A program made the translations under genes and the position numbers. 64,000 bases of DNA from the NCBI GenBank assembly GCA_963666275.2, contig CAXXOA010000003.1:96001-160000 (forward strand), written 5' to 3'. The first letter of the stretch is position 1; every line of letters starts with the position of its first letter. The stretch is from Oceanispirochaeta sp. Lineage in GTDB: Bacteria > Spirochaetota > Spirochaetia > DSM-2461. The notes under the pieces are model-generated. The model ran no database searches. It worked only from the letters and a program-made list of their open reading frames with translations, and was not told where the DNA came from. Below, piece after piece: positions 28,918 through 51,906 of this stretch.

Positions 28918-29916
28918 TCAAGATCCAGTGGCAAGAACCAGGTTCTCACAGCTGCCTGTCTTTTCAATATCCATCAGGTTTCTGAAGGTAGTCTCCCTGA
29001 TATTGGCCAGGGCTTCCCGTGTAAAAAAGGCCTGGTGAGCAGTTATCAGAACATTGGGAAAGGTCTGAAGCCTCACAAAGGTATCGTCATGAATGACTTT
29101 ATCCGAGTGATCTTCAAAGAAGAGCTCCTCTTCCTCCTCGTAGACATCTAGCCCTACATATCCGATTTTACCGGTTTTCAAACCTTTGATAATGGCTGCC
29201 GTTTCTATCAGGGGCCCTCTGCTTGTGTTTATAATCATAACTCCGTCTTTCATACTTTTCAGAGCATAGCTGTTGATCAGATGGTAGGTTTCCTGAGTGA
29301 GAGGGCAGTGGAGGGATATGATATCGCTTTGGCGGTACAGATCTTCCAGTTCCACATATTCCACTCCCCGGGATTTTAAATCATCGGAGGGGTATTTATC
29401 ATAGGCCAGAATTTTCATACCTAAACCTGAAATGGTCTCAATAAAAATCTGACCGATTCTTCCCGTTCCGATGACTCCGATGGTTTTTCCTCTCATGTCA
29501 AATCCCATGAGACCGTCCAGAGCAAAATTGCCGTCTCTCACACGGCTGTGGGCTCTATGGTATTTTCTGTTCAGACTCAGGATCAGTCCCAGGGCATGTT
29601 CGGCCACCGCATAGGGGGAATAGGCGGGAACCCGGCAGACAGTTATTTCCTTTTCGGCCGCCGCATGAAGGTCTACGTTGTTGTATCCCGCGCAGCGGAG
29701 AGCTATGGCCTTTACTCCCATCATAGACAGGGCTCCGATGACCTGACTGTTCACCGAGTCGTTGACAAAAACACATACCGCATCGTATCCGTCTGCAAGC
29801 TTTACCGTATTCTCATTGAGTGTGGATTCAAAAAAAGTCAGTTGCAAGGAAGAGGGAATTTTTTCGGAAAAACTGTCTCTCACCCATTTCTTCGTACTGA
29901 AAACAGCTACTTTCAC
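28918..29916 (-). CDS. ldhA: D-lactate dehydrogenase (D-2-hydroxyacid dehydrogenase)
   Basis: 'CVFVND', 'LRCAGYNNVD', 'VPAYSPYAVAEH', 'GTGRIG', 'NTSRG', 'TAHQAFFT'. GTG start with GAGGAG RBS. Confidence 0.9.
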   Translation of the reverse strand: MKVAVFSTKKWVRDSFSEKIPSSLQLTFFESTLNENTVKLADGYDAVCVFVNDSVNSQVIGALSMMGVKAIALRCAGYNNVDLHAAAEKEITVCRVPAYSPYAVAEHALGLILSLNRKYHRAHSRVRDGNFALDGLMGFDMRGKTIGVIGTGRIGQIFIETISGLGMKILAYDKYPSDDLKSRGVEYVELEDLYRQSDIISLHCPLTQETYHLINSYALKSMKDGVMIINTSRGPLIETAAIIKGLKTGKIGYVGLDVYEEEEELFFEDHSDKVIHDDTFVRLQTFPNVLITAHQAFFTREALANIRETTFRNLMDIEKTGSCENLVLATGS

Positions 29917-29952
29917 CTGACAACTCCTCAAAAATACTAGTAATATTGTAGT

Positions 29953-33946: not shown

Positions 33947-34522
33947 TCATGTGGTTCTGATTTTACCCGCTTTCAGCATCCTCTCTGTCATGGTACTGAC
34001 CGGGCAGACTGTACACCAGGTCCGGGGTTTGTAGAATACGGCGAAAAGGGTTCCCAGAATTGTGGAACTGAGCATCACCGAATACATTCTGAAAGAGAGG
34101 TGGAGCAGCCAGTCGGGTACAGAGGAGAAGGCTATGAGCTGGGGCAGGGCCACAGGAAGTTCAAAAAGGATAAACAGCCGGATCCTGTCGATAGGGGGGA
34201 TCTGCCCCTGATGGACCATCGTGGTGGAGAGACCGATAAACATGAGGTTCAGACAGAAATAGCTAAGGATCAGATTCTTGAGATTCGCCTTTTTCATCCA
34301 TTCGGGCATTTTCCTTTTACGGCTGATCCTTCCGAAAAGAGTCAGGAAGTCCGCCCGGGGGCAGTAGCCAGTACACCAGGCTTTCTTTCCGGTTTTTCCC
34401 GCCAGGACAAAGGGGGTCACCATGCAGGCCAGGGCAGACATGGCCAGGGTAATATTGATAAATCCCAGGGCAAAATAGAGCAGGGTTATCCAGTACAGCT
34501 GCCTGGAAAGGGAATGTTTCAT
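33947..34522 (-). CDS. Membrane 4Fe-4S-binding protein (NapH/MauN-like CxxxCP type)
   Basis: Hydrophobic segments with 'AWCTGYCP' and 'RTWCTVCP'. AGGAGG RBS before ATG 34522. Confidence 0.8.
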   Translation of the reverse strand: MKHSLSRQLYWITLLYFALGFINITLAMSALACMVTPFVLAGKTGKKAWCTGYCPRADFLTLFGRISRKRKMPEWMKKANLKNLILSYFCLNLMFIGLSTTMVHQGQIPPIDRIRLFILFELPVALPQLIAFSSVPDWLLHLSFRMYSVMLSSTILGTLFAVFYKPRTWCTVCPVSTMTERMLKAGKIRTT

Positions 34523-34590: not shown

Positions 34591-35307
34591 TTATGACTGG
34601 GATTCCTGATAGATCGAGACATCTCCGCTGATGGTTTTCTGCAGGGAAGACTGAAAGGTCCAGAGGGCTTCCTTTGTATTGCGTTTTTCAAAGCATTTAA
34701 AAAGTCTCAGGGTATTCTGATAGAGGGCCTGATTCCCATGACGGGCAAAATAGCGCTCCCAGAGACGCAGGGAGAGTTCCTTGAAGGAGAAAAAAATGAC
34801 TGGGAGAAAGGTATTTCCCGATATAATGCATATTTCGTGATGAAAAAGGAAAATCAGCCTGGCCGACTCGGATGCTGTATCGGACTCTCCGAACTGGACA
34901 AGCAGCTTTTTCAGGGCCTCCAGGCTCTCTTTGGTCATACGGGGCGTGGCCAGCTGAATAGCCAGTGTTTCAAAAGCCAGCCGGACTTCCAGAAGGGATT
35001 TCATTTCTGTATTTTTCATAACCCCTCCGTTGTAACGGAGTATGGCCAGGAGAGTTTCCACGGTTCCCTTCCGTTTGAAATCCGCCACAAAAGCGCCGAT
35101 CCGGGGTTTCATTTCAATAAAACCTTTGGCCGCCAGGTCGGATAAACCGGAATTGACCACACTGCGGCTGACACCCATTTTTTCGGCCAGTTCCCGCTCT
35201 GTGGGAAGCTGGTCTCCGATCGAGAGATTTCCGGAAAGTATCCGGTTTTCTATCTCTTTCACAAAGAGCTCCCTCAGCGAGGGGGATGATAATCGGGAGA
35301 AATCCAT
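34591..35307 (-). CDS. GntR/FadR family transcriptional regulator
   Basis: 'LPTERELAEKMGVSRSVV' wHTH and FCD domain ('LEVRLAFE', 'FHHEI'). Confidence 0.93.
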   Translation of the reverse strand: MDFSRLSSPSLRELFVKEIENRILSGNLSIGDQLPTERELAEKMGVSRSVVNSGLSDLAAKGFIEMKPRIGAFVADFKRKGTVETLLAILRYNGGVMKNTEMKSLLEVRLAFETLAIQLATPRMTKESLEALKKLLVQFGESDTASESARLIFLFHHEICIISGNTFLPVIFFSFKELSLRLWERYFARHGNQALYQNTLRLFKCFEKRNTKEALWTFQSSLQKTISGDVSIYQESQS

Positions 35308-35423: not shown

Positions 35424-35451
35424 TTGACAGTTCCATCGGGTGTGGTATTTT
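35424..35451 (+). promoter_or_regulatory. Sigma-70-type promoter of the Ni transporter-hypB operon
   Basis: TTGACA-N16-TATTTT with an extended TGn element. Confidence 0.55.
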
Positions 35452-35474: not shown

Positions 35475-36140
35475 ATGGATCAATCTGTTTTTTTATTGCT
35501 GTCAGCCACTTTTTCGGTGGGTTTTATTCACACCCTGGCAGGGCCGGATCACTATCTGCCCTTTATTGCCCTTTCCGGGGCCCGGGGCTGGGCCGTGAAA
35601 AAGACCATGGGGGTTACTCTGTTATGCGGTCTGGGCCATATCGGGTCTGCTGTGCTGATCGCTCTGCTGGCCATGTCCATGGGGTTTGTTTTTGACAACC
35701 TTTCTGTGATTGAGTCATTCCGGGGGCAGCTGGCCTCGTGGTTTCTCATCAGCTTCGGTCTTGTGTATGCCCTGTGGGGATTGAAAAGGGCTGTGAGAAA
35801 GCAGGTTCACAGCCACGGTCATGGTTTATGTCCTCATGAGGGGCACGATCAGAGACGGGCAGTTTCGTGGGTTCTTTTCCTTATATTCATTTTCGGACCC
35901 TGTGAGCCGCTGATCCCGCTGATCCTCTATCCGGAGATTCTGGGAAACGGCCCGCATGTGCTGGCAGTTGTCCTGACCTTCGGACTTGCCAGCATCATCA
36001 CCATGCTCCTGATTGTGGGAGCTTCCCTCTACGGGGTGAAGCGGTTCTTCCGGATCCCTCTGCTGGAGCGGTTCGGCAATGCCCTGGCAGGGGGAGTCCT
36101 CTGTTCCTGCGGGCTGGCCATGGCTTTTCTGGGGCTCTAG
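35475..36140 (+). CDS. UreH/NiCoT-like nickel (or cobalt) transporter
   Basis: About 6 TM segments, 'HTLAGPDH', 'GLGH', His-rich loop 'HSHGHGLCPHEGH', 'GPCEP'. Lies directly before hypB. Confidence 0.75.
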   Translation: MDQSVFLLLSATFSVGFIHTLAGPDHYLPFIALSGARGWAVKKTMGVTLLCGLGHIGSAVLIALLAMSMGFVFDNLSVIESFRGQLASWFLISFGLVYALWGLKRAVRKQVHSHGHGLCPHEGHDQRRAVSWVLFLIFIFGPCEPLIPLILYPEILGNGPHVLAVVLTFGLASIITMLLIVGASLYGVKRFFRIPLLERFGNALAGGVLCSCGLAMAFLGL

Positions 36141-36170
36141 ATAAAAAAAAGGAAAAAACAGGAGTTATAT

Positions 36171-36839
36171 ATGGAGAAATACAGGGTCATTGAGATCAGA
36201 AAAAATGTTTTTGACAGTAATGACAGGGAAGCGGAAAAACTGAGACAGGAACTGAAAAAAGAGAAAGTTTTTCTTCTCAACCTCATGTCCTCGCCGGGAT
36301 CGGGGAAGACCTCAACGGTGCTGCAGACCATTGCCTCATTAAAGGACGACCTTTCCCTGGGCGTGCTTGAGGCGGATCTGGATTCAGACGTGGATGCCCG
36401 GAGTGTTTCTGAAACAGGGGTAAAGGTCCTTCAGCTCCATTCGGGGGGAATGTGCCATCTCAATGCGGATATGACAAGGCAGGGGCTGGAGGCCATGGGA
36501 GCCGATGATCTGGACCTTGTGATACTGGAGAATATCGGGAATCTGATCTGCACCGCCGAGTTTGACACGGGGGCCTCCAGAAATGCCATGATCCTGAGTG
36601 TTCCCGAAGGAGATGACAAGCCTTTGAAATATCCCGTGATGTTTTCCATGGCGGATGTCCTTCTTGTCAACAAGATTGATGCCATGGACTTCTTTAATTT
36701 CAGTCTGGAAAGGCTGACAGAATATGTGCGCAAACTGAATCCCGATATAAAGATTTTACCCGTTTCGGCTAAAACCGGAGAGGGAATGGATCAGTGGATC
36801 AGCTGGCTGAAAGAGGAGGTTACAGCATGGCAGAAATAA
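36171..36839 (+). CDS. hypB: Nickel-insertion GTPase HypB
   Basis: 'SSPGSGKT', metal 'CHL', 'ENIGNLIC', 'SVPEGDDKPLKYP', 'NKID', 'VSAKTGEG'. Confidence 0.95.
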   Translation: MEKYRVIEIRKNVFDSNDREAEKLRQELKKEKVFLLNLMSSPGSGKTSTVLQTIASLKDDLSLGVLEADLDSDVDARSVSETGVKVLQLHSGGMCHLNADMTRQGLEAMGADDLDLVILENIGNLICTAEFDTGASRNAMILSVPEGDDKPLKYPVMFSMADVLLVNKIDAMDFFNFSLERLTEYVRKLNPDIKILPVSAKTGEGMDQWISWLKEEVTAWQK

Positions 36840-39532
36840 CAGGATCAAGAGAGATCATCCTGGATCTTTCCAATCATATCAACAGAACTAAGAAAGGGGC
36901 CAAAAGGGCCATACAGTTCGGGGATCCTGAATACAGGATTCTGGAACCGGTTGTCACAGACGAAATGGCCAGGGTCGGTCTTTATCTGGAGCTTCGGAAT
37001 CCCAAAAGCGCGGCAGATGTGGCTCCCCTGTGCGGTCTGTCAGAAGACACCGTGGAAAAACTGCTCTGGGATCTGGCCATGGCGGGAGTCTGTTTTGTCA
37101 ATGAAATAGACGGTACTGACAAGTACTGGCTGGAAACCTGGATTCCCGGGGTTATGGAGATGATGGTCAACAACAAAGAGAATGTGGCCAGGTATCCCCA
37201 GATTGCCGAGGCCTTTGAAGCCTACGGCAGGGTCCGGGGTCCTATGTCCGCCGGGAACTTCCCTGTGGGAACCGGGCTTATGAGAGTGATCCCCATAGAA
37301 AAATCCATCCAGGGGGAAACCCGGAAAGCCTCGTATGAGGAGGTTTCCCGCTATCTGAATGAAAACTCCATTTTCTCCGTCTCCGACTGCGCCTGCCGGA
37401 CAGCCAGGGAGTCCATGGGCGAGGGATGCGGCCATCTGAAAGAGGATATGTGTATCCAGATGGGCCACGCGGCTGAGTACTATATCCGGACAGGACGGGG
37501 ACGGGAAGTCTCAAGGGAAGAGGCCTTTGAGATCATCCGCAGGGCCGAAGAGAACGGTCTGATGCACCAGATTCCCAACACTGACGGTTCGGGAAAAACC
37601 CATGCCATCTGCAACTGCTGCGGCTGTTCCTGCCTCTCTCTGAGAACCGCCGAAATGTTCATCAACTCCGATATGGTCCGGTCCAATTATGTTTCCACTG
37701 TGGATAAAGACAAGTGCGTTGCCTGCGGGGAGTGCGTGGAAGTCTGCCCTGTGAATGCCCTGAAACTGGGTGAGAAGATCTGTTCGGGGAATCCCCGGGA
37801 TATCCAGAGAAAGGAGACTCCCAATAATACAGAATGGGGAGAGGACAAATGGAATCCCGACTACAGGATCAACCGTCAGGTTGTGACCGAGACCGGTACC
37901 AGCCCCTGTAAGGCCGAGTGTCCCGCCCATATCGGGATTCAGGGCTACGTGAAGCTTGCCTCCCAGGGAAAATATACCGAAGCTCTGGAACTTATCAAAA
38001 CGGAAAACCCCTTTCCCGCTGTCTGCGGCAGGGTCTGTCCCCGGAAGTGTGAGTCCGCCTGTACAAGAGGAGACCTGGACGATCCCGTAGCCATTGACGA
38101 GATCAAGAAATTCATCGCCGAGAAGGATCTTCACAGTGAATCCCGCTATGTGCCCCGGATAAAAAACAGCTACGAAAAGAAGATCGCCGTGGTGGGAGCC
38201 GGACCTGCGGGTCTCTCCTGCGCCTATTACCTGGCCGTGGAAGGCTATAAAGTGACTGTTTTTGAAAAAGAGAAGGAGCCGGGGGGCATGCTGACAATGG
38301 GAATCCCCTCGTTCCGGCTCTCCCGGGATGTGATCCGGGCGGAGATTGATGTGATGAAGTCTCTGGGGATCGAAATCCGGACCTCTGTGGAAGTGGGAAA
38401 GGATATGACCCTGGATGAACTGAGATCTCAGGGATATGAGGCCTTCTACCTGGCCCCCGGCGCCCAGGCGGGAAGAACTCTGGGAATCCCCGGAGAGGAA
38501 GGGGAGGATGTTGAATCGGCTGTGGATTTTCTCAAGCGGATCAATCTTTCCTCCGGTGAAACCCTGACGGGGAATGTCCTTGTCATCGGCGGGGGAAATG
38601 TGGCCATTGATGTGGCCAGAACCGCTGCCCGCTGCGGCGGAGAGTCGGTGACCATGGTCTGTCTGGAGTGCCGCTCTGAGATGCCGGCTCTGGAAGAGGA
38701 GATCGAAGAGGCCCTGGCCGAAGGCATTGAAATCCGGAACTCCCTGGGGCCTGTCAGGATTATCCGCAAATTGGGAAAGGTCACGGGTGTGGAAATGAAG
38801 AAATGCCTTTCCGTTTTTGATGAAAACGGGCGCTTTTCTCCTCGTTTTGATGAAGAGGATACAGTTGTTATTGCGGTCGATCAGGTCATTGTGTCTGTAG
38901 GGCAGGGGATTGACTGGGGAACCATGCTGGAAGGTTCGGCTGTTGAGCTGAACGGGAATAACACTGTGAAAGTGGATCCCCGTACCTGTCAGACGGCTCA
39001 GCCGGATATATTTGCCGGCGGGGATGCCCTGACAGGGCCGCAGTTTGCCATAGACGCCATTGCTCTGGGCAAGGAGGGCGCCCAGTCCATTCACAGGTTT
39101 GTCCATCCCGGACAGAGCCTTGTGTACGGCAGGACCCTGCGGGACTACAAAGCCCTGGACAAGGAGAACCTGCAGCTCTCCGGCTATGACCGCATGCCCC
39201 GGGAAAAGGCGGCAAATCCAGTGGGAAAAGACTCTGTCTCCTCCTTTCAGGATCTGAGGGGGATCTTTTCGGAGGAGCAGATTAAAAAAGAGACCGAACG
39301 CTGCCTGGGATGCGGGGCTACCGTGACGGATCCCTACCTCTGTGTGGGCTGCGGCGCCTGTACTCTGAAGTGCCGTTTTGATGCGATCTCACTGAAGAAG
39401 CAGTACGATGCGGAAGGACTGGTTCTGATGGATATCCGGCCTGCGGTTATGAAGCACGCGGTAAAGAGGAAGCTCCGTATCACTGTGAACAAGCCCGTGA
39501 AGGCTGTGAAAAGTCTTCTGGATCGTCCCTGA
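36827..39532 (+). CDS. Large FAD/NAD(P)H-dependent Fe-S oxidoreductase (Cys-rich N-terminal domain + ferredoxin + GltD-like module)
   Basis: 'DCACR', 'ICNCCGCSC', 'CVACGECVEVCP', 'PCKAECP...CGRVCPRKCESAC', 'VGAGPAG', 'GGGNVAID', 'RCLGC...CVGCGACTLKC'. GAGGAGG RBS overlaps the end of hypB. Confidence 0.88.
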   Translation: MAEITGSREIILDLSNHINRTKKGAKRAIQFGDPEYRILEPVVTDEMARVGLYLELRNPKSAADVAPLCGLSEDTVEKLLWDLAMAGVCFVNEIDGTDKYWLETWIPGVMEMMVNNKENVARYPQIAEAFEAYGRVRGPMSAGNFPVGTGLMRVIPIEKSIQGETRKASYEEVSRYLNENSIFSVSDCACRTARESMGEGCGHLKEDMCIQMGHAAEYYIRTGRGREVSREEAFEIIRRAEENGLMHQIPNTDGSGKTHAICNCCGCSCLSLRTAEMFINSDMVRSNYVSTVDKDKCVACGECVEVCPVNALKLGEKICSGNPRDIQRKETPNNTEWGEDKWNPDYRINRQVVTETGTSPCKAECPAHIGIQGYVKLASQGKYTEALELIKTENPFPAVCGRVCPRKCESACTRGDLDDPVAIDEIKKFIAEKDLHSESRYVPRIKNSYEKKIAVVGAGPAGLSCAYYLAVEGYKVTVFEKEKEPGGMLTMGIPSFRLSRDVIRAEIDVMKSLGIEIRTSVEVGKDMTLDELRSQGYEAFYLAPGAQAGRTLGIPGEEGEDVESAVDFLKRINLSSGETLTGNVLVIGGGNVAIDVARTAARCGGESVTMVCLECRSEMPALEEEIEEALAEGIEIRNSLGPVRIIRKLGKVTGVEMKKCLSVFDENGRFSPRFDEEDTVVIAVDQVIVSVGQGIDWGTMLEGSAVELNGNNTVKVDPRTCQTAQPDIFAGGDALTGPQFAIDAIALGKEGAQSIHRFVHPGQSLVYGRTLRDYKALDKENLQLSGYDRMPREKAANPVGKDSVSSFQDLRGIFSEEQIKKETERCLGCGATVTDPYLCVGCGACTLKCRFDAISLKKQYDAEGLVLMDIRPAVMKHAVKRKLRITVNKPVKAVKSLLDRP

Positions 39533-39542
39533 GTGCCCGGTT

Positions 39543-39884
39543 ATGCATGAACTGGGGGTTATTGCGGAGGTTGTCAAAACCGTTGAGGACATTGTCCGGG
39601 AACAGGGCCTGACAGAGGTGGAAGCGCTGGTTCTCCAGATAGGAGAGCTTTCTTCCATCATTCCCCGGTATGTGGAGGACTGCTATCCTGCGGTGGTGGA
39701 CGGCACCCTGCTGGAAAAGACCCGTCTGGAGATTGAGATCCTCCCGGCCAACGGGCGCTGCCGGTGCTGCGGAAAGGTTTTTCATATAAAGTCAGCCGGC
39801 GGGTTGTGTCCGGACTGTCATATAGAGGACTGGGAGCTCCTGGGTGGCCGGGAGTTCCTGATAAAAGAGATTCTGGCCTGCTGA
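39543..39884 (+). CDS. hypA: Nickel metallochaperone HypA
   Basis: N-terminal 'MHE' Ni motif, Zn CxxC pairs 'CRCC' and 'CPDC', 'GREF'. Confidence 0.95.
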   Translation: MHELGVIAEVVKTVEDIVREQGLTEVEALVLQIGELSSIIPRYVEDCYPAVVDGTLLEKTRLEIEILPANGRCRCCGKVFHIKSAGGLCPDCHIEDWELLGGREFLIKEILAC

Positions 39885-39963
39885 CAGGGATCCTGCCGCC
39901 GGCTCTGGTTTTGTGAAAATACGGCTGGATCAGCCGAAGGAATTGGTTTTAAGGAGTTTTATT

Positions 39964-40965
39964 ATGTTTACTTTCAATACAGCCGCAGGAGCCACTCTGT
40001 GGTCTTCCTGGGGGATGTGGCTTGTTGTTCTGGCGGCTCTGTTTCTGCTGAATGAAGTATCCCGCCGGTCTAAACTGGCAGGATTCCTTTCTTTTGTTGT
40101 TCTGCCGCTTGTGTTAACGGTTCTCTGGTTTACCCTGCTCAGGGACACAACCTATACGGACTGGTTTCATCTGGCAAAAGTATACTCTGCCACCGCCGGG
40201 TGTATCGGTTTCTGGCTGATCCGGCATCTCCGGGGAAAGGATAAGGCCACCGGCAGAGAGTGGCGCCTGTCCGAGAAGAAATGGGCGCTCTGTTTTCCTC
40301 CTCTGATCCTGGCCATCAATATCCTGGAAGCCTGTGTCAGGGATTTTCAGATCGGTTTCCTCTATTCCGGCGGGGGAATTACCGCTGATGAGGGCGTGTA
40401 TGTTCTGGGTGGAATCTGGAACTATATGAACGGTGCGGCGGGGATCCTCAATATCATAGCCATCACGGGCTGGTTCGGCATCGTGATCCGCCGGGAGACG
40501 GCAAAAGACAAGAGCCGGGATATGCTCTGGCCCGATATGCTCTGGTTCTGGATCATTGCCTACGACCTGTGGAACTTTGTCTATACCTACAACTGCCTGC
40601 CCCACCACGCCTGGTACTGCGGTTTCGCCCTTCTTCTGGCTCCCACTCTCTGTGCCTTTACCCTGGGCAAGGGCGCCTGGCTTCAGCACAGGGCCCATAC
40701 CCTGGCCCTCTGGTGCATGTTTGCCCAGACATTCCCCTCCTTTCAGGACGAAGGGATGTTTGCCGTCACCTCCACCTACAATCCGACGATCTATATGGTT
40801 TTCGGTGTGGCTTCCCTTGCGGTCAATGTTGCCGTGGTCGGGTATATGCTCAAGAAAATCAAAGAGACAGGACGCAATCCCTACAAAGAGGAACTCTATA
40901 CGGATCATCCCGGTTATCAGGAGGTGAATTCTCTCAGTGAACCTGCTGTGAAACTGGGGGCCTGA
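39964..40965 (+). CDS. Multi-pass membrane protein (DUF5692-like), possible transporter
   Basis: About 9-10 TM segments, 'WFHLAKVYS', 'INILEA', 'WPDMLWFWIIAYDLWNF', 'WLQHRAHTL'. AAGGAG RBS before ATG 39964. Family recalled, not searched. Confidence 0.7.
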   Translation: MFTFNTAAGATLWSSWGMWLVVLAALFLLNEVSRRSKLAGFLSFVVLPLVLTVLWFTLLRDTTYTDWFHLAKVYSATAGCIGFWLIRHLRGKDKATGREWRLSEKKWALCFPPLILAINILEACVRDFQIGFLYSGGGITADEGVYVLGGIWNYMNGAAGILNIIAITGWFGIVIRRETAKDKSRDMLWPDMLWFWIIAYDLWNFVYTYNCLPHHAWYCGFALLLAPTLCAFTLGKGAWLQHRAHTLALWCMFAQTFPSFQDEGMFAVTSTYNPTIYMVFGVASLAVNVAVVGYMLKKIKETGRNPYKEELYTDHPGYQEVNSLSEPAVKLGA

Positions 40966-43664: not shown

Positions 43665-45434
43665 ATGAAACAGAAAACAGAACAAACAAGCTATATAAAG
43701 ACCCTGGGCATGACCTGCGGGAACTGTGAAAAAAAAGTATCGGAGAATCTGAAAGAGCTGGCGGGAGTGATCTCTATCCAGGCCGATTTTGTCGGGGGCC
43801 ATGTCCGGATCCGCCATAATGGAGAGTTCTCTCCGGATGAGGCTCTCCGGAGGCTATCCCGGCTGGGATACGAAGGCCGTCAGGTCTCCCGGAAAAGGCT
43901 GGTCTTCGAAAAACTCCGCTTTTATATAATTTCCTCCGTCATTATTGGTTTAATGCTCTACATTAATCAGAAAACCGGCCTTCTGAACCGGATACCCCGA
44001 ATCCCTGAAGAGGCAACTTATATGCTCCTGCTGGTTCTGGGAATCATGACTTCGGTTCACTGCATAGGCATGTGCGGGGGAATCAACCTTTCCCAGACAG
44101 GATCCGCCCGGCTGGACGAACCGGGGAAAGCGGTTTTCCGCAGAGGATTGGCCTACAATGCGGGGAGGATCATTTCGTATACTCTTGTCGGGGCCCTGGC
44201 AGGAGCTTTGGGGTCTGTGTTCTCTCTGGCCCTATCTCTCCAGGCGGCGGTTATTTCAGTTGCGGGAGTCTTCATGGTGGCGGCGGGGTTCCATATGCTC
44301 GGGTTTCTGGGGGGGCTTCGCCGGATCTTTCCCGGAGGGGTCAGTTTGCCATTTTCCCGGTTTTTCAGGGGGAGAACCTTCAGGCATCCCCTGGCTGTTG
44401 GGATAGCCAACGGCCTGATGCCCTGCGGTCCCCTCCAGTCCATGCAGCTCTATGCCCTGTCTACGGGAAGCTTTTGGCAGGGTGCCCTTTCCATGTTTTT
44501 TTTCAGCGTCGGGACTGTTCCACTGATGCTGCTTTTCGGAAGTATCAGCGCTTTCTTTTCCCTGAAATCCCGCCGGATCGTCCATCGGACAAGCGGTCTT
44601 CTGGTTCTTCTGCTGGGAGCCGGTATGATTCTGAGAGGACTCTCCCTTCAGGGGGTGGGGCTGCCTGTGGACAGTGCCGGATCGGACGAAGTCAAAAGAG
44701 CCCTGGCTGTACTAGAAGGCTCTTCCCAGGTTGTGGAGTCCGCAGTGACTCCCTACGGATATGAACCCATAGTTGTTCAGAAAGGGATTCCTGTGGAGTG
44801 GCGCCTTTCTGCCGGTCCGGGGGATATCACCGGATGCAATAATGCCATTATTGTCAGGGAGTACGGGATTGAGCAGCCTCTTGATGATGGAATTACCACT
44901 GTAGAATTCCTCCCTGTGGAGGCGGGGACTTACCTTTTTTCCTGCTGGATGGGGATGATCTCTTCTCATATTGTGGTTGTGGACGATCTGTCTGCCTATG
45001 ATCCGGCAGCCCCGGTGGATCCTCCCGGAGCGTCTTCTACCCGGGAGGTCCGAGTGAAAATACCCGAATTTCAGGCAGAAGATATCGCCTATTCCCGGCA
45101 GGGGGAAGAGACCTATGAAGCAGAGCTTCTGATAGAGAACGGTGGCCTCTCTCCGGCTGTGATTGTCATGAAAAGGGGAGCGGAAACCAGATGGCATCTC
45201 AGCGCCTCAGATGTGGATTCCGAATCCCGCAGGATTGTCTTTCCTTCCTATAATGCGGTGGTGGATGTTCCTGAGGGGGAATCAACAGTATTAACTCTGG
45301 TGCCCGAAGAGGATTTTTATTTCTACAGCTCCGACGGAGAGTTTCTGGGATTTGTTGTTGCCGCTGATGATCCCGGGAGTTATTCAGAAAGGAAAGTGCT
45401 CAGAATCGTGAACTCCTACCTCACGTCTCCATAG
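43665..45434 (+). CDS. HMA + DsbD_2-type membrane domain + cupredoxin-like domain(s); copper/heavy-metal handling protein
   Basis: 'GMTCGNC' HMA, 'HCIGMCGG', 'YNAGRIISY', 'LMPCGPL', 'GTVP', 'TGCNN...FSCWMGMI'. Confidence 0.85.
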   Translation: MKQKTEQTSYIKTLGMTCGNCEKKVSENLKELAGVISIQADFVGGHVRIRHNGEFSPDEALRRLSRLGYEGRQVSRKRLVFEKLRFYIISSVIIGLMLYINQKTGLLNRIPRIPEEATYMLLLVLGIMTSVHCIGMCGGINLSQTGSARLDEPGKAVFRRGLAYNAGRIISYTLVGALAGALGSVFSLALSLQAAVISVAGVFMVAAGFHMLGFLGGLRRIFPGGVSLPFSRFFRGRTFRHPLAVGIANGLMPCGPLQSMQLYALSTGSFWQGALSMFFFSVGTVPLMLLFGSISAFFSLKSRRIVHRTSGLLVLLLGAGMILRGLSLQGVGLPVDSAGSDEVKRALAVLEGSSQVVESAVTPYGYEPIVVQKGIPVEWRLSAGPGDITGCNNAIIVREYGIEQPLDDGITTVEFLPVEAGTYLFSCWMGMISSHIVVVDDLSAYDPAAPVDPPGASSTREVRVKIPEFQAEDIAYSRQGEETYEAELLIENGGLSPAVIVMKRGAETRWHLSASDVDSESRRIVFPSYNAVVDVPEGESTVLTLVPEEDFYFYSSDGEFLGFVVAADDPGSYSERKVLRIVNSYLTSP

Positions 45435-48888: not shown

Positions 48889-48937
48889 ATGGGAGCAGAA
48901 AAACGGATGATCCATCCGTAAGGCAAAGGTGGTTTTT

Positions 48938-51163
48938 ATGAAACAATGGGACAATTTTATCAGTGGGTCATGGATGTTCAAAATCGATGTCCGCGACTTT
49001 ATACAGAGAAACTATACACCCTATGAAGGAGACGATTCCTTCCTGACGGGACCGACAGACAGAACCCTGATGCTCTGGGATAAAGTGAAAGATCTTATGG
49101 AGCAGGAGAGGGCCAGAGGGATCCTCGATGCGGAAACGGAAAAGCCCTCTACGGTGATCTCTCACGGGGCGGGCTACATAGACCGGGAGCTGGAGCAGAT
49201 TGTAGGGCTTCAGACCGACAAACCTCTCAAAAGGGGTATCATGCCCAAAGGGGGGCTGCGGGTGGTGGAATCCGCCCTGGAGTCCTATGGCTACAACCTT
49301 TCTGAGGAGGTGAAAGAGGTTTTCGGAAAGCACAGGAAAACCCATAACGACGGCGTTTTCAGCGCCTATACGGAAGATATGCGGAAGGCCCGGAAGTCGG
49401 GAATCCTCACAGGCCTGCCCGATGCCTACGGACGGGGGCGGATCATAGGAGATTACCGCCGGGTGGCCCTTTACGGGGTAGACCGTCTTATTGAAGACAA
49501 GAAATCCCAGAAGGAGCTTTTTGATACACCCTGTATCACCGAAGAGAGTATCCGCGGACGGGAGGAGATCTCCGAGCAGATTAAAAGTCTGGGAGAACTC
49601 AAAGAGATGGCCTCCTTTTACGGTCTGGATATTTCAGGCCCCGCCGGTACGGCGAGAGAAGCGGTTCAGTGGACCTATCTGGCCTATCTGGCGGCAATCA
49701 AGGAGCAGGACGGGGCGGCCATGTCACTGGGACGGGTGTCTTCTTTTCTGGATATCTATATTCAGAGGGATCTGGAAGAGGGGACTCTGACGGAACAGGA
49801 GGCCCAGGAATTGACCGATCACTTTGTTATGAAACTGAGGATGGTCCGTTTTCTGAGAACCCCCGGCTATAACGAACTCTTTTCGGGAGATCCCACCTGG
49901 GTTACCGAGGTCCTCGGGGGAATGGGAGTAGACGGCCGGACTCTGGTAACAAAGAACACCTTCCGCTTTCTCCATACCCTGGAAAATCTGGGGCCTGCTC
50001 CCGAGCCGAACCTGACAGTCCTGTGGACACCCCGGCTTCCCGAGGGATTCAAGGACTACTGCTGCCGGCTTTCCATTGAAACTTCGGCGATCCAGTACGA
50101 AAACGACTGCCTCATGCGGACCTGGTTCGGTGATGACTATGCCATAGCCTGCTGTGTCTCCGCCATGAAGGTGGGCAAGCAGATGCAGTTTTTCGGTGCC
50201 CGGGCCAATCTTGCCAAAGCACTTCTGTATGCCATCAACGGGGGCCGGGATGAAAAGTCGGGTCTTCAGGTGACACCGGCCTTCAAGCCCGTGGAAGGGG
50301 ACTATCTGGATTATGATGAGGTGAAAGAGCGGTTTGATGTGATCCAGGACTGGCTGGCCGCCCTCTATATCAAGACCCTCAATGTTATCCACTTTATGCA
50401 TGACAAATACAATTACGAGTCCCTCCAGATGGCTCTTCATGACAGGGATATCCACAGGACCATGGCCTGCGGGATTGCGGGACTTTCTGTAGCGGCAGAC
50501 TCTCTCTCGGCCATAAAGTACAGCCGGGTGAAGGTCATACGGAACGAAGAGGGCCTGGCGGTAGACTATGAAGTGGAAGGGGAGTACCCGGCCTTCGGCA
50601 ATAACGATGACAGGGTGGATCAGATTGCCGTAGATCTGGTGGAAGGCTTTATGGGACGTCTGAAAAAACAGAACACCTACAGAAATGCCGAACCCACCCA
50701 GTCTATCCTGACCATCACAAGCAACGTGGTCTATGGAAAGAAAACAGGATCCACTCCGGACGGAAGGAAGGCGGGGCTGCCCTTCGGTCCCGGAGCCAAT
50801 CCCATTCACGGACGGGACACCCACGGGGCTCTGGCCTCTTTCGCCTCTGTAGCGAAGCTTCCCTACGAACACGCCATCGACGGGATCTCCTATACCTTTT
50901 CCATCGTGCCCAAGGCCCTGGGCCGGAGCGGAGAGGAACAGAGGAAGAATCTCTGCTCCCTCATGGACGGCTATTTCCTGGAGGGGGGCCACCATGTGAA
51001 CATCAATGTTCTCAACAGGGAAACCCTTCTGGATGCGATGGATCATCCGGAAAAGTATCCCCAGCTGACCATCCGGGTTTCCGGCTATGCGGTGAATTTC
51101 ATCAAGCTGACCCGGGAGCAGCAGGAGGATGTTATCAACAGGACATTCCATTCGATTATCTAG
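48938..51163 (+). CDS. pflB: Pyruvate formate-lyase
   Basis: '[17 protein letters not shown]', active-site 'IACCVS', glycyl-radical '[10 protein letters not shown]'. Confidence 0.98.
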
Positions 51164-51174
51164 GGGGGACACTC

Positions 51175-51906
51175 ATGGCTGAACCGGTAAAAGGGCGTAT
51201 TCACTCCTACGAGACCTGCGGCATGGTGGACGGGCCGGGACTGAGGTTTGTCCTCTTTCTCCAGGGATGCCCCCTGCGCTGCCTGTACTGTCACAATCCC
51301 GACAGCTGGTCCGCCCGGGGAGGCCGGGAGATGAACTCTCAGGAGGTGGTGAATGAAGTCCTGAAGTACAGATCCTGGATGGAGGCTTCCGGAGGAGGGC
51401 TGACCCTGAGCGGAGGGGAAGCCCTTTTTCAGCCCGACTTTGCCCGGGATATCCTGATCCGCTGCGCCCGGAAAGGGATCCACACGGTTCTGGATACGGC
51501 GGGATACGGCAAACTGGAGAGGATCGCTCCCGTGCTGGATGCGGCGGATCTGGTGATTCTGGATATCAAGTCTGTAAACGAAGAGGTCCATAAAAAAGTC
51601 ACCGGCGTGTCCGGCGCAGTGCCTCTGGAAACCCTGAATTACCTTCAGGAGACTGGTAAACCTTTATGGATACGGCATGTGGTGGTTCCGGGACTGACCG
51701 ATGACAGACGGGATCTTGCCGCCCTGAAAGGGATGCTTCTGGGGTTGAAAAATCTGGAAAGGGTGGAACTTCTGCCCTTCCATAAGATGGGGGAGGAGAA
51801 GTGGCTCCCCGGCCGGTATACCCTGGAGAACACGCCCATACCCGAAGCGGATTTTATGAAGGCCCTCTGCAGCGAGTTCCGGGAAGCAGGGCTCCCGGCG
51901 GCCTGA
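51175..51906 (+). CDS. pflA: Pyruvate formate-lyase activating enzyme (radical SAM)
   Basis: 'VDGPGLR', 'GCPLRCLYCHNPD', 'SGGE', 'LLPFHKMG'. Confidence 0.96.
   Translation: MAEPVKGRIHSYETCGMVDGPGLRFVLFLQGCPLRCLYCHNPDSWSARGGREMNSQEVVNEVLKYRSWMEASGGGLTLSGGEALFQPDFARDILIRCARKGIHTVLDTAGYGKLERIAPVLDAADLVILDIKSVNEEVHKKVTGVSGAVPLETLNYLQETGKPLWIRHVVVPGLTDDRRDLAALKGMLLGLKNLERVELLPFHKMGEEKWLPGRYTLENTPIPEADFMKALCSEFREAGLPAA

What the first reader, a model, noticed from the sequence alone, without database searches (positions are those of the whole stretch)
35475..40965. Ni transporter-hypB-[flavin/Fe-S oxidoreductase]-hypA operon with no hydrogenase: candidate new Ni enzyme
Seen: a tightly packed operon in which HypB (CH motif, GTPase motifs) and HypA (MHE plus two CxxC) directly bracket a ~900-aa oxidoreductase. 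hypB overlaps its start and hypA begins 10 nt after its stop. A His-rich UreH/NiCoT-like transporter precedes them. No hydrogenase subunits, hypCDEF, urease, CODH or lar genes are in the window. Known: HypA/HypB deliver Ni to [NiFe]-hydrogenases (and urease in Helicobacter), and HypCDEF are needed for the Fe(CN)2CO moiety. Inference: the sandwiched oxidoreductase is itself the Ni client, i.e. an NAD(P)H-linked metalloenzyme with a Ni site outside the established Ni enzyme classes.
Basis: partly seen in the sequence, partly recalled or inferred. Interest (0 to 1): 0.87.

Follow-up and report, generated by a model that had tools for sequence, protein, structure and literature searches.

The report
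IsrA-type nickel reductase operon
Two nickel-delivery genes really do flank a large iron-sulfur flavoenzyme in a genome with no nickel hydrogenase, but this suspected new nickel enzyme family was published in 2023; what is added here is that relatives repeatedly sit beside a fatty-acid isomerase, pointing to hydrogenation of conjugated fatty acids.

Summary
The operon is real: transporter-hypB-901-aa Fe-S flavoprotein-hypA-DUF5692, with a divergent FadR-type regulator. The genome (97% complete) has no [NiFe]-hydrogenase, HypD, urease or CODH, and one hypA and one hypB. The idea is not new: Kronen et al. 2023 (PMC10134865) described this family (IsrA, putative isoprene reductase, 'clade 9'), its hypA/hypB/DUF5692 linkage and a Cys6 nickel-site hypothesis. 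This scan also found the family before on other DNA. The window protein fits clade 9 but is not IsrA itself. Added here: (1) among 61 related genomes hypA occurs in 15 of 15 with the enzyme and 0 of 38 lacking both enzyme and HypD; (2) His247 is invariant in the family but Gln in 6 of 6 short homologues not linked to hypA; (3) a homologue of the P. acnes linoleate isomerase sits beside the operon in 10 of 80 loci, in two same-genus relatives, and in 3 of 3 cases in an even sample of 149 Clostridia. Best reading: a HypAB-matured, probably NADH-linked Ni/Fe-S reductase of conjugated dienes, likely conjugated fatty acids. Nickel and substrate remain unproven, and this genome lacks the isomerase.

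The parts
34591..35307 (-). GntR/FadR-subfamily regulator, divergent; probable repressor of the operon (inferred)
   Evidence: PF00392 + FCD PF07729 + FadR_C; homologue in 31 of 80 related loci; TetR regulators take its place in others
35424..35451 (+). sigma-70-like promoter candidate (TTGACA-16-TG-TATTTT) 24 nt before the first gene
   Evidence: consensus match 10 of 12, joint best of 15 sites found in 7.5 kb; not evidence of function
35475..36140 (+). His-containing membrane protein, UreH/DsbD_2-like; probable Ni importer (inferred); accessory
   Evidence: no Pfam hit; Atlas neighbours DsbD_2/UreH; 50-53% identical homologues in G057/G059 hit PF13386; in 2 of 80 loci; CbiM-type Ni/Co transporters follow the operon in L016, L017, L121
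36171..36839 (+). HypB GTPase Ni chaperone; only copy over cut-off in the genome
36827..39532 (+). 901-aa IsrA-family (clade 9) Fe-S flavoprotein: N-terminal domain with Cys188/190/209/262/264/269 and His247; 16 further conserved Cys for four [4Fe-4S]; GltD/NfnB-like FAD/NAD(P)H core
39543..39884 (+). HypA Ni chaperone; only copy in the genome
39964..40965 (+). DUF5692 polytopic membrane protein with invariant polar residues (K72, N119, E122, N153, N156, Y200, N204, R243); role unknown, possibly substrate handling or membrane isomerase (speculative)
   Evidence: PF18948; 45-sequence alignment; model pLDDT 88.7; in 48 of 80 loci

Best explanation
The operon makes a soluble, nickel-loaded Fe-S flavoenzyme of the IsrA family that hydrogenates one C=C of a conjugated diene. 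Shown: gene order, domain content, conserved ligands, dedicated co-occurrence with hypAB. Inferred: the importer supplies Ni2+, HypB (GTP) and HypA hand it to the N-terminal domain; NAD(P)H (probably NADH: Cys-Leu-Glu where NADPH-using relatives have Tyr-Arg-Arg, a recalled rule) reduces FAD; electrons pass along four [4Fe-4S] clusters to a Cys6+His247 Ni/Fe-S site, where the diene is reduced, as proposed for isoprene to methylbutene. For this branch the likeliest natural substrates are conjugated polyunsaturated fatty acids (biohydrogenation: detoxification and electron sink), made by a PAI-type isomerase where one is encoded and otherwise by DUF5692 or by other organisms.
For: No other HypAB client in the genome: no [NiFe] large subunit (only a NuoD), no HypD (13), no urease alpha, three prismane hits are all hybrid cluster proteins. 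21 of 50 genomes behind related loci lack both large subunit and HypD and all 21 keep hypA (41-43). In 61 relatives hypA is in 15 of 15 enzyme-bearing genomes (13 adjacent, 14 without HypD), in 6 others that all have HypD, and in 0 of 38 with neither. Where the enzyme gene lacks flanking hypAB, three Peptostreptococcaceae genomes keep a 59-65% identical hypB-hypA pair elsewhere, two of them with no hydrogenase. Cys6 and His247 invariant in 120 of 120 close and 12 of 12 full-length divergent sequences; Gln in 6 of 6 short homologues. IsrA is isoprene-induced and strain Y reduces conjugated dienes but not monoenes (PMC10134865 sections; PMC9765523 passages). PAI-like gene (PDB 2b9w family, E 2e-54, full length) in 10 of 80 loci; 4 of 4 further, divergent PAI-like hits adjoin the operon, two in same-genus genomes with the window's exact gene order; 3 of 3 in an even Clostridia sample where only 8 of 149 have the enzyme (133, 135, 136, 141; hypergeometric 1e-4, kinship ignored). 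Kronen notes oleate hydratase beside two Acetobacterium homologues. A review states C. sporogenes and C. bifermentans make vaccenic acid via CLA (PMC13365329, passages); C. sporogenes and a Paraclostridium carry the enzyme.
Against: No metal or activity data exist in what I found. The Cys6 set is kept in short homologues that have no hypA nearby (three of their genomes have no hypA at all), so Cys6 alone does not mark nickel. The window's genome has no PAI-like gene and no oleate hydratase; 52 of 61 enzyme-bearing genomes scored have no PAI-like hit. 7 of 17 metagenome PAI-like loci show no operon gene (3 end inside the gene, 3 have 6 kb clear). In three loci of hydrogenase-bearing genomes (L030, L035, L088) no dedicated hypAB pair was found in the stretches I fetched. 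The PAI profile was built from operon-linked genes. Kronen reports that Acetobacterium species with 47-49% identical homologues do not reduce isoprene, so substrates differ across the family.
Confidence: 0.5

Rival explanations
1. The enzyme is the HypAB client and holds Ni, but its chemistry is not diene hydrogenation (for example it is an electron-transfer module for DUF5692 or reduces another substrate), and the isomerase is a lineage-specific neighbour.
For: Most loci have no isomerase (70 of 80; 52 of 61 genomes); other flanking genes are heterogeneous; the isoprene assignment of IsrA rests on proteomics only (PMC10134865).
Against: PAI-like genes of several divergent subgroups (profile E 1e-245 to 1e-47) lie beside the operon in Bacillota and in the window's own family; PAI-linked enzymes need 3 changes on the tree; two independent lines (isoprene, PAI product) both give a conjugated diene.
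Confidence: 0.22
2. HypAB are dedicated to this enzyme but it is not a nickel enzyme: the Cys6 site is a plain or unusual Fe-S cluster, or the chaperones deliver another metal (Co, Zn).
For: Cys6 is conserved in short homologues without hypA; the transporter has no diagnostic NicO hit; Kronen also compares the site with P-cluster and double-cubane sites.
Against: HypA keeps the invariant MHE Ni-binding start in 38 of 38 aligned and HypB its CH..C motif; all established HypAB clients are Ni enzymes (recalled); Ni/Co-type transporters recur beside the operon.
Confidence: 0.18
3. These hypAB serve a known Ni enzyme elsewhere in the genome (hydrogenase, urease, CODH, or the LarA-family proteins) and the adjacency is incidental.
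For: Three LarA-family genes are present without larC or a larE over cut-off, so their Ni source is unexplained; the genome is 97% complete, not closed.
Against: No hydrogenase, HypD, urease or CODH found; 13 of 23 LarA-positive relatives have no hypA and one enzyme-plus-hypA genome has no LarA hit; genomes with hydrogenase often keep a separate hypA at the hydrogenase locus.
Confidence: 0.05
4. The Ni client is DUF5692, not the oxidoreductase.
For: DUF5692 is in 48 of 80 loci and one genome has hypA-hypB beside DUF5692 away from the enzyme (L112).
Against: hypB (72) and hypA (67) follow the enzyme more often than DUF5692 does; DUF5692 has no invariant Cys or His in 45 sequences; IsrA's operon has none.
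Confidence: 0.05

Closest known systems
IsrA (VUZ27132.1 / LNN31_08025), putative isoprene reductase of Acetobacterium wieringae, and its 'clade 9' homologues (Kronen 2023, PMC10134865; Jin 2022, PMC9765523)
   Same: 901 aa; PF07992 + PF14691 + two ferredoxin motifs; about 270 N-terminal residues without a Pfam domain; two CxC motifs at 188/190 and 262/264 against IsrA's 180/182 and 254/256, first ferredoxin Cys 297 against 289 (constant offset 8); hypA, hypB and DUF5692 neighbours; host lacks [NiFe]-hydrogenase and hypD.
   Different: Lacks the 26-residue IsrA-subclade insertion; 47% identical to P0124, an unnamed protein with IsrA's Cys spacing and a 26-residue insertion; one hypA, no 350-aa ferredoxin; has DUF5692, a transporter and a FadR-type regulator. 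IsrA's own sequence was not retrieved, so identity to it was not measured.
GltD/NfnB/StnC/NfnA(ABC)/dihydropyrimidine dehydrogenase FAD-2x[4Fe-4S] module
   Same: Core residues about 350-855 match StnC 8oh5_C (Z 47.5, rmsd 2.0, 473 aligned), T. sibiricus NfnABC 9n5v_A (Z 47.0), NfnB 4ylf_B (Z 38.0) (Foldseek).
   Different: Extra 290-residue N-terminal metal domain with no sequence match in PDB beyond a weak winged-helix hit; the ERCLxC segment is C-terminal, whereas it precedes the core in the genome's GltD-like proteins; no gltB, nfn or dsr partner adjacent; all NCBIfam scores below cut-off.
HypA/HypB of [NiFe]-hydrogenase maturation (and H. pylori urease)
   Same: Family scores and Ni/Zn/GTP motifs intact.
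   Different: No hypD or large subunit in the genome; hypA tracks the oxidoreductase instead.
P. acnes polyunsaturated fatty acid isomerase PAI (PDB 2b9w family) and bacterial biohydrogenation of linoleic acid
   Same: PAI homologues are encoded beside this operon in relatives; PAI makes trans-10,cis-12 CLA (PMC13365329, passages). The identification of 2b9w (listed as 'putative aminooxidase') with PAI is recalled.
   Different: The window's genome has no PAI-like gene; the homologues are distant (E 2e-54 to 9e-13) and their activity is untested.

Membership tests
IsrA clade 9 homologues (Kronen 2023) | About 900 aa with FAD/NAD(P) domain PF07992, DPD domain II PF14691 and two extra ferredoxin motifs | tested here: met
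IsrA clade 9 homologues (Kronen 2023) | N-terminal ~270 aa with no Pfam domain and six clustered Cys including two CxC | tested here: met
IsrA clade 9 homologues (Kronen 2023) | hypA, hypB, DUF5692 within a few genes | tested here: met
IsrA clade 9 homologues (Kronen 2023) | Full-length alignment to, and tree placement with, VUZ27132.1 | tested here: inconclusive
   IsrA sequence not retrieved; proxy P0124 aligns over 883 columns at 47%; its insertion sits near residue 713-738, the paper gives 756-782
IsrA proper (cluster I, isr operon) | 26-residue insertion | tested here: not met
IsrA proper (cluster I, isr operon) | Second hypA and 350-aa ferredoxin in the operon | tested here: not met
   single hypA and single N-domain protein in the genome
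IsrA proper (cluster I, isr operon) | Induction by, or reduction of, isoprene | not testable with these tools
   needs culture or enzyme
Nickel enzyme | Stoichiometric, catalytically required Ni | not testable with these tools
   genomic inference only
[NiFe]-hydrogenase maturation cluster | Large subunit and HypD in the genome | tested here: not met
   (genome 97% complete; controls rang); HypC, E, F not searched genome-wide
GltD / NfnB / DsrL subunits | Score over the family cut-off and cognate partner gene adjacent | tested here: not met
   core fold shared
NiCoT / UreH nickel transporter (first gene) | NicO (PF03824) or UreH-type family match | tested here: inconclusive
   no Pfam hit at E 0.01; Atlas look-alikes and DsbD_2 hits in homologues

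The most novel reading that the evidence does not exclude
This family is a nickel-dependent reductase of conjugated fatty acids, with a new Cys6-His Ni/Fe-S active site matured by HypAB alone, and is a principal reductive enzyme of linoleic/linolenic acid biohydrogenation in gut, rumen and sediment anaerobes; DUF5692 is its membrane partner, possibly the membrane-bound linoleate isomerase whose gene has been elusive; isoprene reduction is a side branch.
Probability: 0.33. Interest if true: 0.85.

Novelty: new member of a known kind. Interest (0 to 1): 0.5.

Why it matters
Only a handful of nickel enzyme classes are known (recalled: about nine). A HypAB-only client with a Cys6-His site that hydrogenates unactivated conjugated C=C bonds would be a new class and a useful biocatalyst. 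The hypothesis is already in print, which lowers the surprise, but it is untested and the family's natural substrate is unknown. The repeated linkage to a CLA-forming isomerase gives a specific substrate to assay and would connect the family to microbial biohydrogenation of dietary fat, which sets CLA and vaccenic acid levels in meat, milk and the gut. His247 gives a specific residue to mutate.

Tried and rejected
HypA-enzyme complex prediction: no result; the job was lost and the tool then became unavailable, so binding is untested. DUF5692 fold: no Foldseek match at E <= 0.001 and best VIA Z 8.1 to generic 7-helix membrane proteins, Atlas returns only DUF5692 clusters; no function assignable. 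IsrA's sequence could not be retrieved by name; P0124 served as proxy. Search for shorter homologues returned mainly fragments. Expression: no RNA holder listed; no reads laid. IQ-TREE did not finish; FastTree used, 2 of 94 rows with masked residues dropped. Literature searches with no hit: hypA+hypB+pyridine nucleotide-disulfide oxidoreductase+Clostridium; CLA+reductase+vaccenic acid+nickel+gene cluster; biohydrogenation+linoleic acid+reductase+hydrogenase maturation+Clostridium; PAI residue terms; one search gave two listings not read. The PAI structure paper was not held, so PAI residues Arg88/Phe193, which align as Arg/Phe in L029 but are less well kept in the divergent copies, are recalled. 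Only 2 of Kronen's supplements were held; Tables S8/S12 (neighbourhood lists) were not visible and might already list the isomerase. The library omits most subscription journals, so a biochemical study could have been missed. Rejected: CODH in the genome (hybrid cluster proteins); hydrogenase large subunit (NuoD); LarA as the client.
Full report
Observation. HypB scores twice its NCBIfam cut-off; HypA passes Pfam but not TIGR00100. The first gene has no family hit; its look-alikes are DsbD_2/UreH-type proteins, so 'Ni importer' is an inference.

No other client in the genome. The assembly (5.27 Mb, 3 contigs, 97% complete) has no [NiFe]-hydrogenase large subunit over cut-off (the one weak hit is NuoD), no HypD, no urease alpha subunit, and its three prismane-family hits are hybrid cluster proteins, not CODH. 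There is one hypA and one hypB. It does encode three LarA-family proteins but no LarC and no LarE over cut-off. HypC, E and F were not searched genome-wide.

Conservation. Of the 80 best loci among at least 536 relatives in GTDB genomes (Bacillota, Spirochaetota, Chloroflexota, Desulfobacterota-type, Bdellovibrionota), 72 carry hypB, 67 hypA, 48 DUF5692, 31 the regulator and 2 the transporter. I searched the genomes behind 50 of these 80 loci (my choice, favouring long contigs and including the hypAB-less ones): 21 have neither large subunit nor HypD, and all 21 have hypA (41-43; two genomes not scored for HypD). An unselected set of 61 relatives gives the cleaner test (68, 70, 71, tallied in 141). 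Fifteen have the full-type enzyme (N-domain E below 1e-100, my cut); all 15 have hypA, 13 next to it, and 14 lack HypD. Six have hypA without the enzyme and all six have HypD. None of the 38 with neither has hypA. Only 44 of the 61 are at least 90% complete, and kin are not independent. LarA does not explain hypA: 13 of 23 LarA-positive relatives have none. Where the enzyme gene stands without hypAB, three genomes keep a close hypB-hypA pair elsewhere; for three hydrogenase-bearing genomes I found no such dedicated pair in the stretches fetched.

The enzyme. Residues about 350-855 are a GltD/NfnB/StnC-type FAD and Fe-S module; the AlphaFold model is confident throughout (pLDDT 92, pTM 0.91). 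Sixteen conserved Cys fit four [4Fe-4S] clusters; the ERCLGC segment lies at the C-terminus, a permutation relative to the genome's GltD-like proteins. The N-terminal 290 residues have no Pfam domain or PDB relative beyond a weak winged-helix hit. Across sequences down to 38% identity six Cys (188, 190, 209, 262, 264, 269), Arg191 and His247 are invariant. Short homologues of about 430 aa keep the six Cys but have Gln for His247 in 6 of 6 and no hypAB in the flanks fetched; they come from one family, so this is one contrast, not six. It suggests that Cys6 binds an Fe-S core and His247 may be the Ni-specific ligand (inference; geometry not measured).

What is known. A search for DUF5692 gave one paper: Kronen et al. 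2023 (PMC10134865; I read the abstract, sections 8 and 9, two of three parts of section 10, and passages). It describes IsrA, a 901-aa isoprene-induced oxidoreductase in an operon with hypA and hypB, in a genome without [NiFe]-hydrogenase or hypCDEF. It reports that of 988 homologues 73% lie near hypA, 56% near hypB and 40% near DUF5692, and proposes a Cys6 'cluster V' as the Ni site. Jin et al. 2022 (PMC9765523, passages) show the strain reduces conjugated dienes but not monoenes. Two 2026 preprints (10.64898/2026.02.25.708027 and 2026.02.19.706888, passages) report hypA/hypB induction by isoprene in Pelotomaculum enrichments and still call for biochemistry. The window protein matches the published Cys spacing at a constant offset of 8, lacks the 26-residue IsrA insertion, and is 47% identical to a proxy that has one (114): a clade 9 member, not IsrA. 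Eight earlier scan notes describe the family in other genomes, one suggesting lipid hydrogenation; I had entered the isomerase lead before reading them.

A substrate lead. The only recurring enzyme neighbour besides the core is a 420-aa flavoprotein in 10 of 80 loci, full-length homologous to PDB 2b9w (E 2e-54), which I recall as the P. acnes isomerase PAI; a review confirms PAI converts linoleic acid to a conjugated diene (PMC13365329, passages). With a profile of these ten, 70 genomes gave 10 hits: six were the training genes and the four new, divergent ones all adjoin the operon. Two are in genomes of the window's own genus with the order regulator-PAI-transporter-hypB-enzyme-hypA-DUF5692, the window's cassette plus the isomerase. 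In an even sample of 149 Clostridia besides the centre, 8 have the enzyme and 3 a PAI-like gene, and all 3 lie beside enzyme, hypA and hypB (counts are floors). Ten of 17 metagenome PAI-like loci have an operon gene downstream, 7 of them hypB or the enzyme. PAI-linked enzymes fall in more than one part of the tree (3 changes). Against this: the window's genome has neither PAI nor oleate hydratase, and 52 of 61 enzyme-bearing genomes have no PAI-like hit. DUF5692 could fill that role, and a B. fibrisolvens genome paper found no linoleate isomerase gene (PMC6249431, passages), but DUF5692 co-occurs with PAI in most PAI loci and its fold gave no clue.

Verdict. The feature is real and the HypAB-client inference is strong (about 0.9 that HypAB serve this enzyme, about 0.75 that it holds Ni). 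A conjugated-diene reductase is the most likely function (0.5 overall) and conjugated fatty acids the most likely natural substrates for this branch (about 0.33). It is a new member of a published but untested kind. I found no paper linking the family to fatty-acid biohydrogenation or to His247, but Kronen's neighbourhood tables were not visible. Interest 0.5.

Noticed in passing
L001 (G000:C1:501028-502209) and G000:C1:502082-504064: NuoB/C/D-like genes followed by a 661-codon GltD-like Fe-S flavoprotein frame: a complex I-like membrane-bound oxidoreductase without a Ni site.
   Followed up: partly
L006, L007, L008 (G000 C1, C2): Three LarA-superfamily genes (one over the cut-off for nickel-dependent hexonate epimerase) in a genome with no larC and no larE over cut-off; source of the Ni-pincer cofactor unexplained.
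   Followed up: partly
L003, L004, L005 (G000 C2): Three hybrid cluster protein genes, two nearly identical; L003 has a transposase-like ORF beside it.
   Followed up: no
L010:260-3215 (G000 C2): A distant HypB/CobW-like P-loop protein between two uncharacterised ~340-410 aa proteins; and two further CobW-like GTPases in L011.
   Followed up: no
L042:2556-3623, L119:3842-4855, L120:9864-10844, L121:8279-9283: A ~330-360 aa protein with an IS-like N-terminal HTH precedes the PAI-like gene in all 10 first loci and in these relatives; probably a dedicated regulator or domesticated transposase.
   Followed up: partly
L117:4171-5472, L118:3971-5251, L133-L136: Standalone ~430-aa proteins with the same Cys6 N-terminal domain plus ferredoxin, no FAD core, Gln for His247; an uncharacterised sister family.
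   Followed up: partly
L013:6001-14649; L015:6001-11964; L116; L123: Tandem or multiple copies of the enzyme in one genome (three hypA within 7 kb in L013's genome; two enzyme genes in tandem in L015), suggesting paralogues with different substrates.
   Followed up: no
L124, L125, L127, L130; L023, L031, L047, L087: A ~200-aa class I methyltransferase follows hypA in several relatives; Kronen also saw a methyltransferase induced by isoprene.
   Followed up: no
window 33947-34519 (-): Small membrane Fe-S protein (Fer4_5) downstream of the regulator with its own promoter-like site; no homologue in the 80 related loci.
   Followed up: partly
window 43665-45434 (+): HMA-DsbD_2-cupredoxin fusion, a probable copper/heavy-metal handling protein 2.7 kb downstream of the operon.
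   Followed up: no
window 48929-51906 (+); 28918-29931 (-): Pyruvate formate-lyase-family glycyl radical enzyme with its radical SAM activase, and a D-2-hydroxyacid (lactate) dehydrogenase: ordinary fermentative genes.
   Followed up: no
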